A DNA stretch of 64,000 bases, taken from NCBI GenBank assembly GCA_016934055.1, contig JAFGTR010000028.1:7929-71928 (forward strand), in the 5' to 3' direction. This stretch comes from Bacteroidales bacterium (GTDB taxonomy: Bacteria; Bacteroidota; Bacteroidia; Bacteroidales; UBA10428). Below the pieces are notes generated by a model that was not told the DNA's origin, did no database searches, and saw nothing but the letters and a program-made list of their open reading frames with translations. The translations under genes were made by a program, and so were the position numbers. Below, piece by piece: positions 49,553 through 54,945 of the stretch (position 1 is the first letter of the stretch; every line of letters begins with the position of its first letter).

Positions 49553-50794
49553 ATGGAAAATATTGAATTACAGAAAATAAAACAGCGTTTTAGCATCATT
49601 GGCAACGCTCCCGGTTTAAACCGTGCTATTGACATTGCCCTGCAGGTAGCCCCTACCGATCTTTCAGTTTTGATTACCGGAGAAAGCGGTGTTGGGAAAG
49701 AAGTTTTTCCCAAGATTATTCATCAGTTCAGTTCCCGCAAACATGGGACTTATATTGCTGTGAATTGCGGCGCTATACCTGAAGGAACAATTGATTCAGA
49801 ATTATTTGGTCATGAAAAAGGCTCTTTTACCGGTGCTTATGAGAGCCGGAAAGGTTATTTTGAAGTAGCTAACGGCGGAACCATATTTCTTGATGAGATT
49901 GCAGAGCTTCCCCTGTCCACACAGGTAAGATTATTAAGGGTTCTTGAAACGGGTGAGTTTTTGAAAGTCGGATCATCTAAAGTGGTTAAAACCAATGTCA
50001 GGGTTATTGCAGCGACCAATGTTGACATTCAGCATGCTATTCAGGAAGAGCGTTTTCGGGAAGATCTTTTTTACAGGCTCAACACAGTGCCCATTGAAAT
50101 ACCACCTTTGCGGGACAGAAAAGAGGACATTATGCTGTTATTCCGCAAATTTGCTATAGATTTTGCCGAAAAAAACCGGATGCCGGCCATCACCCTTTCA
50201 GATGACGCCATGAGAATCCTTTCAAACTATCGCTGGCCCGGCCATATACGTCAGCTGAAAAATATCACCGAACAGATATCGATCATTGAATCAAAAAGGG
50301 AAATCACCGCTGAAATATTACAGCAATATCTTCCCGATTATTATGAATCAAAATTGCCCGCATTATATGATGCAATCGATCAGAAGACATTTGCCACAGA
50401 AAGGGAGATCCTGTATAAGATACTTTTTGATATGAAAAATGATGTCAATGACCTGAAAAAACTTGTTTTTGAGATTATGCAACACGGTCCGGCCGCTGCT
50501 GAAGTACACGAAGGCCATGCCAGTGTTATACAGAAACTTTATGAAGATGTGGATGCGGTCATGACCGATGAAAAGGCCGCGCGTAAGTTTGAAATAATAA
50601 AACCTCAATCTGATAATATCCAGGACACCCAGGAGGTCTTTGAAGAATCATTGTCTCTGGCAGACAAAGAAATGGAGCTTATTATCAAAGCACTGGAAAA
50701 ACATCACGGCAAACGAAAAAATGCGGCCAATGAGCTGGGTATCTCAGAACGGACATTGTACAGAAAAATTAAAGAATACAATATTGAAGATTAA
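49553..50794 (+). CDS. Sigma-54-dependent transcriptional activator (bEBP) without an N-terminal sensory/receiver domain
   Basis: The AAA+ core starts about 20 aa from the N-terminus. Walker A GESGVGKE, GAFTGA-loop variant GSFTGA, Walker B IFLDEI, RVIAATN, C-terminal Fis-type HTH ELGISERTLYRKIKEY. An insert of about 110 aa sits between the AAA+ core and the HTH. Confidence 0.9.
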   Translation: MENIELQKIKQRFSIIGNAPGLNRAIDIALQVAPTDLSVLITGESGVGKEVFPKIIHQFSSRKHGTYIAVNCGAIPEGTIDSELFGHEKGSFTGAYESRKGYFEVANGGTIFLDEIAELPLSTQVRLLRVLETGEFLKVGSSKVVKTNVRVIAATNVDIQHAIQEERFREDLFYRLNTVPIEIPPLRDRKEDIMLLFRKFAIDFAEKNRMPAITLSDDAMRILSNYRWPGHIRQLKNITEQISIIESKREITAEILQQYLPDYYESKLPALYDAIDQKTFATEREILYKILFDMKNDVNDLKKLVFEIMQHGPAAAEVHEGHASVIQKLYEDVDAVMTDEKAARKFEIIKPQSDNIQDTQEVFEESLSLADKEMELIIKALEKHHGKRKNAANELGISERTLYRKIKEYNIED

Positions 50795-50800
50795 AATGTT

Positions 50801-51313
50801 ATGAAAAGAACCTTGACATGGACAATCATTTTGTGGGTCTCATGGTTGACTCAGGGTTGTTTTACCTTTTCACTGACCACAAAGGATGCCTCAATACCAA
50901 TTGAAGCGGAGACTGTTTCTGTACAATACTTTCAGAATATGGCCAGGATCGTTGAACCTGCTCTCAGCCAACAGTTAACGGATGATCTGAAAGATTATAT
51001 ACAGGAAAATACCAGACTGAAGCTGATCAATGGGGCAGGCGACCTTGATTTCGAAGGAACCATAACCGGTTATGATATAAAACCGGTATCCATAACATCT
51101 GATGAACAGGCAGCACAAAACCGTTTTACGATAACAGTTAAAGTGAAGTATACATGCTCCGTAAAAGAGGACATGGATTATGATGCCAGTTTCTCAAGAT
51201 ATGAAGATTTTGATTCTTCACAGGATTTTGAGACTGTAAAAAATGATATGACCGAAAGGATAATGAAGTTGCTTATAGAAGATATCTATAATAAAGCATT
51301 TGTTAACTGGTGA
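50801..51313 (+). CDS. LptE-like lipoprotein
   Basis: Lipobox LTQGC. 170 aa. The position between the sigma-54 activator and secG is, as I recall, conserved in Bacteroidota. Confidence 0.55.
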   Translation: MKRTLTWTIILWVSWLTQGCFTFSLTTKDASIPIEAETVSVQYFQNMARIVEPALSQQLTDDLKDYIQENTRLKLINGAGDLDFEGTITGYDIKPVSITSDEQAAQNRFTITVKVKYTCSVKEDMDYDASFSRYEDFDSSQDFETVKNDMTERIMKLLIEDIYNKAFVNW

Positions 51314-51320
51314 TACAGGT

Positions 51321-52316
51321 ATGCTGAGTAATGACATATTGATAAAATACATTGACAATCCGGAATTGCTGAATTCACAGTCATTAAAGGAAATTCAGCT
51401 TCTGACAGACCAATATCCTTTCTTTCAGACTGCCCGTTTACTGGAAGTCAAAAATCATCATGCTGCCGGTTCTTCCGGTTTTCAGTCGAAACTCCATTTT
51501 GGGGCAGCCTATGTTGCTGATCGCAAAATCCTGTATGAACTTATTTATCCTCTTGAAACAAAAACCATAAGGTCCGAAGAGAAAGAGAAAGATGAAACCG
51601 TGACCGGAAAAGTTGAAAAAGAAATAAAACCCACCCTGAAAGAGAACATTGCCGACATCATGGCAACCCAATTGCAAATAATCGATTCGCTCGATCCTGA
51701 GGCTGCTGAACTGATCCCTATGATTTCCCTTGATATTGAAAAGGAATACGGCGGATTGGAAACAGAAGAAAATATCATGAGCCATGAAAATACCGGTGAT
51801 GAGATTATATGGCTTGAAGGGGCTGAAACTGATCACCTGGTTTCAGTTAATCAGGATGAACCCTCGGTTTTGTCGGTTGATAAACACGAAGCCCTGATTG
51901 ACCTGGAGGAAGAAGATACAGTTGAACAGGTTTCCGCAGATATTGATCTGAAAACTGAACAGCCGGCGGAAAATGAAATGCATCAGGAAGCCGGACCTGA
52001 TGTTCCGGATATACAGCAGGAAACTGAAATTCCGGACAAAGATGAAACTCCCAGTAAAAGTACATTAATTGACCGCTTTATTGAGACAAATCCTCGTATT
52101 GCACCACCGGTTGGACCTGTCCCGGAAATTGATGTATCAGCGGAAAGTGTTAAGGAAGATGAAGGATTTCTTACTGATACACTGGCAAAAATTTATGTTA
52201 AACAGGGGTATTATTCAAAAGCTATTTTTGCTTATGAAAAATTGATGTTGAAATATCCGGAAAAAAGTACTTACTTTGCAGCCCAAATTGAAGAGATTAA
52301 AAAAATAATGGAATAG
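51321..52316 (+). CDS. Hypothetical acidic protein with a C-terminal TPR-like motif
   Basis: The central region is very D/E-rich. The C-terminus YVKQGYYSKAIFAYEKLMLKYPEKSTYFAAQIEEIKK is TPR-like. Start moved to ATG 51321. Confidence 0.5.
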   Translation: MLSNDILIKYIDNPELLNSQSLKEIQLLTDQYPFFQTARLLEVKNHHAAGSSGFQSKLHFGAAYVADRKILYELIYPLETKTIRSEEKEKDETVTGKVEKEIKPTLKENIADIMATQLQIIDSLDPEAAELIPMISLDIEKEYGGLETEENIMSHENTGDEIIWLEGAETDHLVSVNQDEPSVLSVDKHEALIDLEEEDTVEQVSADIDLKTEQPAENEMHQEAGPDVPDIQQETEIPDKDETPSKSTLIDRFIETNPRIAPPVGPVPEIDVSAESVKEDEGFLTDTLAKIYVKQGYYSKAIFAYEKLMLKYPEKSTYFAAQIEEIKKIME

Positions 52317-52945: not shown

Positions 52946-52994
52946 AACAGTCAATACGAATTTTTAAGATATGTTTAACTTAAAATAATAGGAT

Positions 52995-53273
52995 ATGTCA
53001 GATGTAAAAATTAAACCTTTAGCCGACAGGGTGGTTATAAAACCATTGGAAGCCCAGGAAAAAACTGTTAGCGGGATCATCATCCCCGATTCTGCCAAGG
53101 AAAAACCCCAGCGTGGAACTGTCGTTGCAGCAGGACCCGGTACAAAAGATGAAAAAATTGAAGTGAAAGTAGGTGATGTTGTTTTGTATGGAAAATATGC
53201 AGGAACAGAAATCAACATCGATGGCACGGATTATCTGATCATGAAGCAGACTGATATTCTGGCCATTGTATAA
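52995..53273 (+). CDS. groES: Co-chaperonin GroES
   Basis: [12 protein letters not shown]...[24 protein letters not shown]... 92 aa. Confidence 0.96.
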
Positions 53274-53310
53274 CCTTATGAATAAACAATAAATAATAAA
53301 ACATATTAAT

Positions 53311-54945
53311 ATGGCAACAAAAGAAATCAAATTTAATATTGAAGCCCGTGAGCTATTGAAAAATGGTGTTGACGCACTTGCCAATGCCGTAAAAGTTACC
53401 CTTGGGCCAAAAGGCCGGAATGTAATCCTTGATAAGAAATTCGGTGCCCCTGCTGTCACCAAGGACGGTGTAACGGTAGCGAAAGAAATCGAGGTTGAAG
53501 ACCCCTTTGAAAACATTGGTGCACAACTTGTAAAGGAAGTTGCATCCAAAACCAATGATGATGCCGGAGATGGCACAACAACAGCTACTGTATTGGCACA
53601 GTCTATTGTTAACGTGGGCCTGAAAAACGTCACTGCCGGAGCCAATCCGATGGATCTGAAACGCGGTATTGATAAAGCCGTAAATGCCGTAATATCTGAT
53701 CTGAAAAAACAATCTCATACCATCGGTGAAGACAGTGAAAAAATAGAACAGGTTGCATCTGTGTCAGCCAACAACGATCATGATATCGGAAAACTTATTG
53801 CCGAAGCCATGGGCAAAGTCAAAAAGGAAGGTGTTATCACCGTTGAAGAGGCCAAAGGAACAGAGACCCATGTAGATGTTGTGGAAGGTATGCAGTTTGA
53901 CCGCGGCTACATCTCTGCCTATTTTATTACTGATCCTGACAAGATGGAAGCCGTTCTCGAAAATGCTCATATCCTCCTTTCCGATAAAAAGATCTCCACA
54001 ATGAAAGATCTTTTGCCTGTACTTGAACCTATTGCACAAGCCGGCAAACCTTTGCTTATCATTGCTGAAGATATTGACGGTGAAGCATTGGCCACGCTGG
54101 TTGTTAATAAACTGAGAGGTTCGCTTAAAATCGCCGCCGTGAAAGCTCCGGGATTTGGCGACAGGCGTAAAGAAATGCTTGAAGACATCGCTGTGCTTAC
54201 CGGTGGTGTTGTTATATCAGAAGAAAAGGGCCTCACTCTTGAAGGCGCTAAAATTGATATGCTGGGTCGTTGTGAAAAAGTAGTCATTGACAAAGAAAAT
54301 ACCACTATTGTCAACGGAGCCGGAGAAAAGAAGAATATCGACGGCAGGATCAAACAAATCAAGGCTCAGATAGAAACCACAACATCTGATTACGACAGGG
54401 AAAAACTGCAGGAAAGACTGGCCAAACTGGCCGGTGGCGTCGCTGTTTTGTATGTCGGTGCCCCATCAGAGGTTGAAATGAAAGAAAAGAAAGCCCGCGT
54501 TGAAGATGCACTGAGTGCAACACGCGCAGCTGTTGAAGAAGGTATTATTCCCGGTGGTGGTGTTGGCTATATCAGGGCTATTAAAGCACTTGACACCCTG
54601 AAAGGCGATAACGAAGACCAGAACACCGGAATCGGCATTGTTCGCCGTGCGCTCGAAGAACCGGCCCGTCAGATTGCCGAAAATGCCGGTAACGAAGGTT
54701 CGGTTGTTGTCCAGCGTATTAAAGAAGGCAAAGACGATTTTGGCTATAATGCACAGGATGATAAATACGAAGCCCTGTATAAAGCAGGCGTTATCGATCC
54801 CACAAAAGTGGCCAGGATTGCCCTTGAAAATGCAGCTTCCATTGCCGGCATGTTCCTCACCACTGAATGTGTGGTAGCTGAAAAACCTGAAAAGGAACCC
54901 CCTGTTCCCATGGGTGGCGCACCCGGAATGGGCGGAATGATGTAA
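53311..54945 (+). CDS. groEL: Chaperonin GroEL
   Basis: AKEIKF..., [10 protein letters not shown], and the GGM-rich C-terminus PGMGGMM. 544 aa. Confidence 0.98.

What the first reader, a model, noticed from the sequence alone, without database searches (positions are those of the whole stretch)
49553..54945. Sensor-less (PspF-like) sigma-54 activator encoded just upstream of lptE, secG and the putatively sigma-54-driven groESL
The activator has no receiver, GAF, PAS or other N-terminal input domain. The AAA+ core begins about 20 residues from the start. It keeps the sigma-54 contact loop (GSFTGA) and a Fis-type HTH. An unexplained insert of about 110 aa (residues about 270-375, acidic and helical) separates the AAA+ core from the HTH.

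By analogy with PspF, whose activity is set in trans by PspA, such an activator must be controlled by a partner protein or be constitutive. It is co-directional and nearly contiguous with an LptE-like lipoprotein, an acidic TPR-like protein and secG (intergenic gaps of 6 bp, 7 bp with my preferred start at 51321, and 71 bp). Then come the terminator and the groES sigma-54 site.

My recollection is that the order activator-lptE-x-secG-groES-groEL recurs in Bacteroidota, but I cannot verify that here. The hypothesis is that this activator drives lon and groESL, and possibly other proteostasis or envelope genes.
Basis: inference. Interest (0 to 1): 0.65.

Follow-up and report, generated by a model that had tools for sequence, protein, structure and literature searches.

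The report
Sensor-less sigma-54 activator beside groESL
A conserved Bacteroidota gene for a sigma-54 activator with no sensor domain lies just upstream of sigma-54-driven chaperone genes, and a 13-bp palindrome found here next to those promoters makes it a testable candidate for the phylum's unidentified heat-shock activator.

Summary
ORF 49553-50794 is a 413-aa sigma-54 enhancer-binding protein (EBP). Its AAA+ core starts at residue 15, it has a GSFTGA loop, a 106-aa linker and a Fis-type HTH, and it has no N-terminal domain. It is followed by lptE, an acidic TPR-like protein, secG, a terminator, a -24/-12 site and groES-groEL. lon, elsewhere in the window, has a perfect -24/-12 site.

The gene order recurs. 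EBP-lptE is found in 38 of 41 Bacteroidota loci. groESL follows secG in 19 loci and clpB in 2.

Sigma-54 control of chaperone genes in Bacteroidota is already published (Flavobacterium psychrophilum TSS map, 2021; a 2025 survey). I found no paper naming the activator.

New here is a palindrome, TGACA-N3-TGTCA, that sits at fixed positions next to these promoters. It starts 49-51 nt after the TGG in 25 of 56 lon promoters, including the window's. It starts 25 nt before the TGG at groES and clpB. Further upstream copies keep a 10.4-bp phase.

The best reading (confidence about 0.55) is that this EBP drives the heat-shock regulon, perhaps from these promoter-proximal sites through its long linker. 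The main rival is a separate regulator, such as RprY, binding the palindrome. What controls the activator is unknown.

This is a new variant of a known kind. Interest 0.6.

The parts
49502..49509 (+). TAATTTTG, a Bacteroidota housekeeping (sigma-A) -7 box of type TAnnTTTG, 44 nt before the activator ATG. Probable promoter of the activator-lptE-X-secG operon.
   Evidence: Sequence. The same box precedes the orthologue in L001, L014, L027, L006 and L007. The motif definition comes from PMC9723704. There is no sigma-54 site and no palindrome enrichment here.
49553..50794 (+). Sensor-less sigma-54 enhancer-binding protein, 413 aa: AAA+ core, lid, long linker, Fis-type HTH.
   Evidence: Pfam and NCBIfam scans. 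More than 100 homologues of 408-414 aa at 75-100% identity. Motif positions.
50327..50467 (+). Conserved linker block, residues 259-305 (YLPDYYESKLPALYD..KTFATEREILYKILFDMKNDVNDLKKLV). It includes an amphipathic helix with heptad-like spacing.
   Evidence: Near-invariant in alignments A1 and A2. Kept in Balneolales and Gemmatimonadota homologues. AF2 places a helix at 283-311 with low confidence. No Pfam match and no PDB relative.
50468..50656 (+). Variable acidic part of the linker, residues 306-368 (pI 4.4), largely predicted disordered.
   Evidence: Variable columns in A1. pLDDT below 50 for residues 315-367. Composition.
50657..50779 (+). Fis-type HTH (HTH_8), residues 369-409. The recognition helix SERTLYRKIKEY is almost invariant across the phylum.
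   Evidence: Pfam scan. Alignments.
50801..51313 (+). LptE-like outer-membrane lipoprotein, 170 aa.
   Evidence: PF04390 at 60.3 bits. Lipobox LTQGC. Lies directly after the activator in 38 of 41 Bacteroidota loci.
51321..52316 (+). Conserved acidic protein 'X' with helical-repeat (TPR-like) ends and a disordered acidic centre. Function unknown. An alternative TTG start is at 51300.
   Evidence: 937 homologues, named only 'hypothetical' or 'TPR repeat protein', with no Pfam domain. AF2 model. Foldseek found no significant PDB match.
52388..52711 (+). secG.
   Evidence: PF03840 and TIGR00810.
52746..52785 (+). secG intrinsic terminator. Its stem and unusually long loop carry three TGTCA/TGACA half-sites (GTGTCAGTATGTCATAGTAACTGACAC).
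   Evidence: Fold at -24 kcal/mol, z = -4.0. The half-sites are conserved in L001-L004 although the distance to the promoter varies from 56 to 178 nt. It is the only intergenic cluster of 3 or more half-sites in the window.
52790..52803 (+). TGACAgaaaTGCAG, a degenerate copy of the palindrome. Compare CTGACAgaaaTGTCAG in L018.
   Evidence: Sequences.
52883..52895 (+). TGAAAaacTGTCC, a weak palindrome copy (8 of 10). It starts 47 nt before the TGG of the groES promoter, in helical phase with the -25 class.
52930..52945 (+). Sigma-54 type -24/-12 promoter of groES-groEL (TGGCACagaatTCGCt).
   Evidence: TGGCAY is conserved at the same distance from the ATG in other genomes. groES has a mapped sigma-54-type TSS in F. 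psychrophilum (PMC9723704).
52995..54945 (+). groES (52995-53273) and groEL (53311-54945). A terminator follows at 54966-54994.
16272..16286 (-). Sigma-54 promoter of lon (TGGCACaacgaTTGC), a perfect consensus match.
   Evidence: Conserved in 69 of 73 lon loci.
16225..16237 (-). Palindrome TGACAtttTGTCC in the predicted lon 5' leader. It starts 49 nt after the T of TGG, at about +24 to +37 of the transcript.
   Evidence: The same element sits at +49 to +51 in 25 of 56 lon promoters, against about 0.3 expected.
13734..16190 (-). lon (ATP-dependent protease La), 818 aa.
   Evidence: Pfam scan.

Best explanation
The region holds a housekeeping operon (activator-lptE-X-secG) read from a sigma-A type promoter. 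A terminator follows, then a separate sigma-54-dependent groES-groEL operon.

The activator belongs to a phylum-wide family of sensor-less enhancer-binding proteins. The family occurs in Bacteroidota, with homologues in Balneolales and Gemmatimonadota.

I propose that it is the activator of the sigma-54 heat-shock regulon (groESL, lon, clpB and probably dnaK, grpE and htpG). As a hexamer it would use ATP hydrolysis and its GSFTGA loops to open sigma-54 RNA polymerase closed complexes at TGGCAY-N5-TTGM promoters.

I further propose that its Fis-type HTH dimer binds the palindrome TGACA-N3-TGTCA. That palindrome flanks these promoters at fixed, helically phased positions, centred near -45 (groES, clpB) or near +30 (lon). 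The unusually long linker would then act as a tether, letting the AAA+ ring reach sigma-54 from such close sites.

Because the gene is co-transcribed with essential housekeeping genes and has no sensor domain, its activity would be set after translation.

What is shown: the anatomy, the synteny, the promoters, and the palindrome with its positions.
What is inferred: that this EBP serves these promoters, that it binds the palindrome, the tether idea, and the mode of control.
For: 1. It looks like a competent EBP. All catalytic motifs are present. The AAA+ profile matches FleQ, NtrC1, ZraR and PspF structures at 1e-64 to 1e-78.

2. Synteny in 41 Bacteroidota loci (45-75% identity, full length). 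lptE follows in 38. groES-groEL follows secG in 19, across four orders. clpB follows secG in L029 and L032.

3. Published data (PMC9723704). groESL, lon, dnaK, grpE-dnaJ and htpG share sigma-54-type TSS motifs and one co-expression cluster in F. psychrophilum. That genome has only three EBPs. One of them (THC0290_0733, followed by lptE) lies four locus tags from groES and is read from a sigma-A-like promoter. A 2025 survey (PMC12316311) finds sigma-54 promoters enriched before GroEL, GroES, DnaK, DnaJ, GrpE and ATP-dependent protease families (COG0466, COG0542, COG1066) in Bacteroidota.

4. The shared cis-element.
- The palindrome (8 or more of 10 positions) starts at +49 to +51 from the TGG in 25 of 56 lon promoters. 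The background rate is 0.0019 per position.
- It starts at -25 at groES or clpB in 7 loci. The half-site pattern TGTCAG-N11-TGGMAY gave 18 hits in 0.8 Mb, of which 12 lie before groES or clpB.
- The composite of promoter plus palindrome gave 16 hits in 1.4 Mb, of which 12 lie before groES, clpB or lon, including both promoters in the window.
- clpB in a different genomic context has it at -56.
- In the window only three 9-of-10 N3 sites exist, and two of them lie next to the two heat-shock promoters.

5. The upstream copies are phased with the promoter. Rayleigh R = 0.81 at a 10.4-bp period (n = 27). Without the -25 class R = 0.74, with a mean phase of 0.2 bp. Dependence on the face of the helix is typical of activator sites at short range (my knowledge of NifA UAS work).

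6. The HTH recognition helix is nearly invariant across the same range of taxa in which the palindrome is conserved.

7. The linker is 106-169 aa in all orthologues checked. The span from AAA+ start to C-terminus is 398 aa here, against 307-352 aa in 19 of the 20 unrelated EBPs measured (the twentieth, L076, is 252 aa).

8. Precedent, from memory: FleQ binds downstream of RpoN promoters (Jyot et al. 2002).
Against: - No experiment or computation here links this protein to the palindrome or to these promoters.
- A palindrome centred at -45 or +30, often as a single copy, is not a typical enhancer. Such positions are also typical of repressor operators.
- In Porphyromonas gingivalis the response regulator RprY binds the groES, clpB and dnaK promoter regions in gel shifts and behaves as a repressor (PMC3646045).
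- In the window itself the groES copies are weak (8 of 10 at -47) or far away (the terminator cluster at -178).
- In many Bacteroidales families groESL is not next to the activator, so the synteny could simply be inherited gene order.
- The tightest partner is lptE, with kdsB and waaA nearby. That would also fit an envelope regulon.
- One hsp20 promoter (L038) has a palindrome-like element overlapping the -12 to +1 region, which an activator site would not do.
- The AF2 model of the linker is poor (pLDDT 59.7).
- The loci are phylogenetically related, so the statistics overstate independence.
Confidence: 0.55

Rival explanations
1. The palindrome is the operator of a separate DNA-binding regulator, for example an RprY-type response regulator or an unknown repressor acting like HrcA at CIRCE. 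That regulator would give heat-shock control. The sensor-less activator would either supply constant, unregulated activation at these promoters or have nothing to do with them.
For: - RprY binds the groES, clpB and dnaK promoter fragments and acts as a repressor in P. gingivalis (PMC3646045; review PMC5706477).
- The palindrome positions suit operators: adjacent to the -24 box, in the 5' leader at about +30, and once overlapping -12 to +1.
- lon usually has a single copy.
- The TGTCA half-site resembles half-sites of PhoB/OmpR-type regulators (my knowledge).
Against: - OmpR-family regulators usually bind direct repeats, not 13-bp inverted repeats.
- The 10.4-bp phasing of upstream copies out to -89, and copies placed 56-178 nt upstream in Bacteroidales, are not expected of a simple occluding repressor.
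- Sigma-54 closed complexes are already silent without an activator, so a dedicated repressor would be unusual.
- The RprY motif is not defined in the papers I read.
Confidence: 0.25
2. The activator controls a different sigma-54 regulon tied to the cell envelope (LPS and outer-membrane biogenesis, Skp, lipoproteins, gliding). Its position next to groESL would be conserved gene order without a regulatory link, and another EBP would drive the chaperone genes.
For: - The most constant neighbour is lptE (38 of 41 loci). kdsB and waaA flank the operon in the window and in L001-L005 and L009.
- The F. psychrophilum sigma-54 regulon also includes skp, an AsmA-family protein, OmpA-like lipoproteins and gliding genes, and that genome has three EBPs.
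- groESL is not adjacent in Bacteroidaceae, Prevotellaceae, Alistipes and others.
Against: - Being co-transcribed with lptE does not make lptE a target. The operon has a sigma-A type box, not a -24/-12 site.
- When groESL is replaced after secG, the replacement in two loci is another heat-shock gene, clpB, with the same promoter-plus-palindrome layout.
- No envelope gene with a sigma-54 site was seen near the activator in the 41 loci.
Confidence: 0.15
3. The palindrome acts in RNA or as a terminator element rather than as a protein-binding DNA site: a short hairpin in the lon leader, and part of the secG terminator upstream of groES.
For: - In the window and in L001-L004 the half-sites form the secG terminator stem.
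- In lon the element lies in the transcribed leader.
Against: - At groES and clpB the -25 copies lie upstream of the start site, so they are not in that mRNA.
- The outermost positions vary without compensation: position 1 is T in 22 of 25 sites, while position 13 is A in 14, T in 6, G in 3 and C in 2.
- A stem of 5 bp with a 3-nt loop is weak.
- Fixed spacing and phasing relative to the -24 box point to a DNA-level role.
Confidence: 0.05

Closest known systems
PspF (E. coli phage-shock activator) and the other sensor-less EBPs HrpR and HrpS
   Same: Same architecture: the AAA+ sigma-54 interaction domain starts at the N-terminus, there is no receiver, GAF, PAS or V4R domain, and a C-terminal HTH follows. 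Control must therefore come from outside the classical sensor domain.
   Different: - It is not a PspF equivalog. It scores 273 bits against a cut-off of 443.55 for TIGR02974, and 226 against 529 for NF008622.
- No psp genes were seen in the flanking genes that were scanned.
- The linker is 106 aa with a conserved helix, against about 20 aa in PspF (my knowledge).
- The loop is GSFTGA, not GAFTGA.
- The gene context is lptE-secG-groESL.
THC0290_0733 of Flavobacterium psychrophilum and the SM4 (sigma-54) promoter set (PMC9723704)
   Same: Probable orthologue: a 'probable sigma-54-dependent regulator' followed by lptE, four locus tags from groES-groEL. groESL and lon have mapped sigma-54-type start sites and are co-expressed with dnaK, grpE-dnaJ and htpG.
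   Different: That paper does not say which of the three EBPs serves which promoters. In the text I read it does not describe a palindrome next to the promoters.
FleQ of Pseudomonas aeruginosa
   Same: Best PDB sequence match to the AAA+ domain (3.5e-78). From memory, FleQ binds enhancer sites either upstream or, atypically, downstream of RpoN promoters in the leader, and its site (GTCA-N6-TGAC) is also a short GTCA/TGAC palindrome.
   Different: FleQ has an N-terminal REC-like domain, binds c-di-GMP, is controlled by FleN and regulates flagella and exopolysaccharide genes. The half-site order and spacing differ.
HsfA/HsfB of Myxococcus xanthus (sigma-54 heat-shock control of lonD; from memory)
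   Same: A sigma-54 activator driving a lon-family heat-shock gene.
   Different: HsfA is a response regulator with a receiver domain and a partner kinase. The protein here has neither.
Sigma-32/DnaK-GroEL, HrcA-CIRCE/GroEL and HspR-HAIR/DnaK heat-shock circuits
   Same: Functional analogy only: one regulator and one shared DNA element for groESL, dnaK, clpB and lon, with possible feedback through chaperones.
   Different: Different proteins and mechanism. Those circuits use a sigma-70-family factor or repressors. P. gingivalis heat-shock promoters lack CIRCE (PMC3646045).

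Membership tests
Bacterial enhancer-binding proteins (sigma-54 activators, PF00158) | AAA+ sigma-54 interaction domain with Walker A, Walker B and arginine-finger region | tested here: met
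   PF00158 at 226.5 bits (cut-off 20.2) over residues 15-182. GESGVGKE at 43, FLDE at 112, REDLFYRL at 169.
Bacterial enhancer-binding proteins (sigma-54 activators, PF00158) | GAFTGA sigma-54 contact loop | tested here: met
   GSFTGA at residues 90-95, invariant in 29 homologues. The F and T are kept and A is replaced by S.
Bacterial enhancer-binding proteins (sigma-54 activators, PF00158) | ATP-dependent opening of sigma-54 closed complexes | not testable with these tools
   Needs biochemistry.
Sensor-less (group V, PspF/HrpRS-type) EBPs | No N-terminal regulatory domain | tested here: met
   Only 14 residues precede the AAA+ domain. The same holds in Tenacibaculum, Pontibacter, Gracilimonas and Gemmatimonadales homologues and in more than 100 homologues of 408-414 aa.
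PspF proper (TIGR02974 / NF008622 equivalogs) | Score above the curated equivalog cut-off | tested here: not met
   273.1 bits against 443.55, and 225.8 against 529.
PspF proper (TIGR02974 / NF008622 equivalogs) | Negative control by PspA, with a divergent pspABC operon | tested here: inconclusive
   The flanking genes are kdsB on one side and lptE, X and secG on the other, and none is PspA-like in Pfam. The rest of the genome is not available.
Bacteroidota sigma-54 heat-shock promoters (SM4 class of PMC9723704) | -24/-12 element (TGGCAC-N5-TTGC type) at a suitable distance before a chaperone or protease gene | tested here: met
   groES: TGGCACagaatTCGC, 65 nt before the ATG. lon: TGGCACaacgaTTGC, 96 nt before the ATG. 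Conserved across genomes.
Bacteroidota sigma-54 heat-shock promoters (SM4 class of PMC9723704) | Transcription start about 12 nt after the -12 element, dependent on rpoN | not testable with these tools
   Needs 5'-end mapping and an rpoN mutant in this organism.
Cognate EBP of the heat-shock regulon | The protein binds a site shared by the regulon's promoters | tested here: inconclusive
   A shared palindrome exists, but which protein binds it was not tested.
LptE (PF04390) | Pfam match above cut-off plus a lipoprotein signal | tested here: met
   60.3 bits against 23. Lipobox LTQGC. There is no NCBIfam hit.
TPR proteins (for protein X) | Pfam TPR match above the gathering score | tested here: not met
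   TPR_2 at 19.1 bits against 27. AF2 shows helical hairpins at both ends, with pLDDT about 91 at the C-terminus, but Foldseek found no significant PDB match.

The most novel reading that the evidence does not exclude
This family is the master heat-shock activator of Bacteroidota, a phylum that I recall lacks sigma-32 and HrcA (from memory, not tested here).

It would work as a promoter-proximal, tethered enhancer-binding protein. An HTH dimer sits on a single TGACA-N3-TGTCA site just outside the polymerase footprint, centred near -45 or near +30. The AAA+ ring reaches sigma-54 through a linker of more than 100 residues, without DNA looping.

The conserved coiled-coil-like helix and acidic disordered segment of that linker would be the stress input. 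Either they melt with heat, or they are held by DnaK or GroEL until unfolded proteins titrate the chaperones away.
Probability: 0.25. Interest if true: 0.85.

Novelty: new variant of a known kind. Interest (0 to 1): 0.6.

Why it matters
How Bacteroidota control their chaperones and proteases is an open question. These bacteria dominate the human gut and many marine and soil habitats. Sigma-54-type promoters have been mapped or predicted in front of these genes, but the papers I could search name no activator and no signal.

This locus offers one specific candidate protein, present across the phylum. It also offers a specific 13-bp DNA element with fixed geometry. Both can be tested directly with gel shifts, ChIP and reporter mutations.

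If the tether model holds, it would also be an unusual way for an enhancer-binding protein to work: from right beside the promoter on either side, rather than from a distant looped enhancer.

Tried and rejected
- **Representative search with the C-terminal 158 aa.** It gave 866 clusters at E of 1e-10 or better. Nearly all were short fragments or chimeric or duplicated assemblies (P0121, P0152, P0211, P0257, P0029, P0061). It was of little use beyond showing that the linker plus HTH module is widespread.
- **AF2 of the activator with a shallow alignment.** Mean pLDDT was 59.7, too poor for a fold search or for interpreting the linker.
- **AF2 and Foldseek of protein X.** No significant match. 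The weak top hits to Hsp90-binding TPR co-chaperones (E about 1) are not evidence.
- **Autoregulation.** There is no palindrome enrichment and no -24/-12 site upstream of the activator gene in 42 loci.
- **A transcription factor next to lon.** The common upstream gene is a GlmU-like nucleotidyltransferase, judged from its sequence and not scanned against Pfam. It is not a regulator.
- **Gemmatimonadota loci.** The homologues lie near lon in 2 of 7 loci, but convergently and behind clpX. No promoter or palindrome could be read there.
- **Repeat or mobile element.** The palindrome is not a dispersed repeat. Only three 9-of-10 N3 sites occur in 64 kb.
- **Rfam.** Nothing was found in the region.
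- **Literature.** Nine searches found no paper that names this activator's targets or describes the palindrome. Subscription journals are not covered.
- **Perfect -24/-12 match at 62440-62454.** It lies inside mfd and was treated as chance.

Full report
**1. What is there**

- ORF 49553-50794 encodes a 413-aa sigma-54 enhancer-binding protein (EBP).
- Pfam places the sigma-54 interaction domain at residues 15-182, the AAA+ lid at 187-262 and a Fis-type HTH at 369-409. Nothing lies N-terminal.
- Walker A, Walker B, the arginine-finger region and a GSFTGA loop are present.
- The 106 residues between lid and HTH have no family match, are acidic (pI 4.6) and have no relative among solved structures.
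- Next come an LptE-like lipoprotein, an acidic protein ('X') with helical-repeat ends, and SecG. The gaps are 6, 7 and 71 bp.
- A strong hairpin terminator follows secG.
- TGGCACagaatTCGC lies 65 nt before groES.
- lon, 33 kb away on the other strand, has a perfect TGGCACaacgaTTGC.
- The activator operon itself is preceded by TAATTTTG, the Bacteroidota housekeeping -7 box, and not by a -24/-12 site.

**2. The protein family**

- More than 100 homologues at 75-100% identity are all 408-414 aa long.
- A scan of species-representative genomes returned 41 full-length Bacteroidota orthologues at 45-75% identity. They come from Bacteroidales, Flavobacteriales, Cytophagales, Sphingobacteriales, Chitinophagales and Balneolales. 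Gemmatimonadota homologues at 34-39% identity also appeared.
- All those checked lack a sensor domain and have linkers of 106-169 aa.
- The linker is not a random insert. Residues 259-305 (YLPDY..KLP....KTF..EREILYKILFDMKNDVNDLKKLV) are nearly invariant, and the helix has heptad-like hydrophobic spacing. It is recognisable even in Gemmatimonadota.
- Residues 306-368 are variable, acidic and predicted disordered.
- In 19 of the 20 unrelated EBPs from the same scan, the span from AAA+ start to C-terminus is 307-352 aa, against 398 here (the twentieth, L076, is 252 aa). The linker is therefore about 50-90 aa longer than usual.
- The protein is not a PspF equivalog.

**3. Synteny**

tblastn with the window's proteins gave the following.

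- lptE lies directly after the activator in 38 of 41 Bacteroidota loci.
- X and secG follow in most loci.
- groES-groEL follows secG in 19 loci from four orders.
- In two loci (L029, L032) the gene after secG is clpB, another heat-shock gene.
- groESL is not adjacent in Bacteroidaceae, Prevotellaceae, Alistipes and some others.

**4. What is already known**

- A transcription-start map of Flavobacterium psychrophilum found sigma-54-type -24/-12 motifs at the starts of groESL, lon, dnaK, grpE-dnaJ, htpG, clpB, skp and others. The first five form one co-expression cluster.
- That genome has three EBPs, and the authors left open which serves which promoters. Its 'probable sigma-54-dependent regulator' plus lptE pair lies four locus tags from groES (PMC9723704).
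- A 2025 survey found sigma-54 promoters enriched before chaperone and protease genes in Bacteroidota (PMC12316311).
- Sigma-54-driven groESL and lon are therefore not new.
- Nine literature searches found no paper naming the activator.

**5. A shared DNA element**

Comparison across genomes reveals one: TGACA-N3-TGTCA, often CTGACA-WWT-TGTCAG.

*lon.* Eighty lon loci were taken from metagenomes, with Lon at 61-86% identity.
- 69 of 73 non-redundant upstream regions have TGGCAY-N5-TTGM.
- In 25 of the 56 that extend far enough, the palindrome (8 or more of 10 positions) starts 49-51 nt after the T of TGG. That is about +24 to +37 of the transcript.
- The background rate is 0.0019 per position, so about 0.3 would be expected.
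- The window's lon has TGACAtttTGTCC at exactly +49 (16237-16225).
- Other lon lineages carry it at -24 to -26 or at -16.

*groES and clpB.*
- The palindrome starts at -25 in seven loci, so that TGTCAG is followed by exactly 11 nt and then TGG.
- Further copies lie at about -46, -56, -66, -77 and -87.
- The half-site pattern TGTCAG-N11-TGGMAY gave 18 hits in 0.8 Mb (both strands), 12 of them before groES or clpB.
- The composite of promoter plus palindrome gave 16 hits in 1.4 Mb, 12 of them before groES, clpB or lon.
- A clpB gene in a different context, divergent from lon, has the palindrome at -56.
- A Gracilimonas hsp20 has a sigma-54 site with a palindrome-like element.

*Phasing.* The upstream offsets are helically phased. 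R = 0.81 at a 10.4-bp period (n = 27). Without the -25 class R = 0.74, with a mean phase of 0.2 bp.

*In the window.*
- The groES copies are a weak one at -47 (52883-52895) and a cluster of three half-sites inside the secG terminator (52751-52777).
- That terminator cluster is conserved in sequence in four related genomes, although its distance from the promoter varies from 56 to 178 nt.
- Only three 9-of-10 N3 sites occur in the 64-kb window. Two of them lie beside the two heat-shock promoters.

*Caveat.* The loci are related to one another, and the thresholds were chosen after seeing the data. The enrichments are nevertheless very large.

**6. How it most likely works**

I rate the following chain at about 0.55 overall.

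- The activator is made constitutively with housekeeping genes.
- As a hexamer it opens sigma-54 closed complexes at the heat-shock promoters.

Arguments that it is the cognate EBP:
- It is as widespread in the phylum as the regulon.
- It lies next to two different regulon members.
- A species with a mapped regulon has only three EBPs.
- Its HTH recognition helix is as conserved as the palindrome.

That the palindrome is its binding site is less sure, about even odds.
- *In favour:* it is a symmetric site suited to a Fis-type HTH dimer. The copies are phased and at variable distances, which is activator-like. FleQ offers a precedent for sites on either side of RpoN promoters (from memory).
- *Geometry:* the two fixed positions (centres near -45 and near +30) lie just outside the polymerase footprint, at similar distances from the -12 region where EBP rings dock. 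A linker of more than 100 residues could bridge that distance without looping. That would explain why the linker is long and conserved in length.
- *Against:* these are also classic operator positions, lon usually has one copy, and RprY binds groES, clpB and dnaK promoter fragments as a repressor in P. gingivalis (PMC3646045).

How the activator is switched is unknown. Candidates are chaperone titration on the linker, heat-sensitive coiled-coil pairing, or a partner protein. Protein X is conserved in the operon, but nothing else points to it as that partner.

**7. Verdict**

- The sigma-54 heat-shock regulon is known. The assignment of this sensor-less, long-linker EBP to it is plausible but unproven.
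- The fixed, phased palindrome appears to be undescribed.
- I classify the finding as a new variant of a known kind, with interest 0.6.

Noticed in passing
window 7852-7866 (-) and 7798-7808 (-), upstream of rsfS (7359-7715) and ftsH (5249-7339): TGGTACtattgTTGA, a -24/-12-like site with T in place of C in the -24 box, lies about 135 nt before rsfS-ftsH. About 60 nt after it comes the palindrome ATGTCaGACAT, which has the same half-sites in a different arrangement. FtsH is a heat-shock protease in other bacteria.
   Followed up: partly
window 52974-52985; also L001-L005, L018, L024, L031: A motif TTTAAC(T/C)nWAAA recurs in the groES 5' leader about 10-25 nt before the ATG in distantly related genomes, where the rest of the leader does not align. 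Its role is unknown. It could be a translation signal in a phylum that I recall largely lacks Shine-Dalgarno sites.
   Followed up: no
window 46179-49404: LPS genes flank the operon: waaA/kdtA (46179-47453, +) and kdsB (48604-49404, -, divergent from the activator). A YidB-like gene lies between them. The divergent kdsB-activator pair recurs in L001-L005 and L009.
   Followed up: partly
L029 8065-8146 and L032 12775-12900: clpB after secG uses an unusual -24/-12 variant, TGGAAT-N5-TTGA. It has a conserved GC-rich hairpin (agccgtctgttc...gaacggacggct) in its leader. The ClpB is short (711-719 aa), apparently lacking the N-terminal domain.
   Followed up: no
L148, L155, L159 (first codons of lon): A perfect TGACAgttTGTCA lies inside codons of about 9-13 of lon, roughly 140 nt after the promoter. 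In these lineages the leader lacks the +50 copy.
   Followed up: no
Flavobacteriales loci L008, L010, L012, L013, L030 (secG-groES spacer): The secG terminators have the form TGCCA...TGACA...TGGCA, with a TGACA or TGTCA half-site in the loop. As in the window, terminator and half-sites overlap. The stem arms also resemble the -24 box TGGCA.
   Followed up: partly
window 55141-59355 and 59789-61720: Directly after groEL lie a 1404-aa histidine kinase, whose repetitive N-terminal region looks PAS-like by eye (not scanned against Pfam), and a hybrid kinase with a PAS domain and two receiver domains (Pfam). No link to the activator is evident.
   Followed up: no
window 21579-22823 (-): A methyl-accepting chemotaxis protein (HAMP plus MCPsignal domains). 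From memory, I did not expect this in a Bacteroidales-type genome.
   Followed up: no
window 62440-62454 (-): A perfect TGGCAC-N5-TTGC lies inside the mfd (TRCF) coding region. It is probably chance, or an intragenic sigma-54 site of the kind mapped in E. coli.
   Followed up: no
L040 and L042 (Gemmatimonadota): Full-length sensor-less homologues (34-38% identity, same conserved linker helix) lie about 1.5 kb from a convergent clpX-lon operon.
   Followed up: partly
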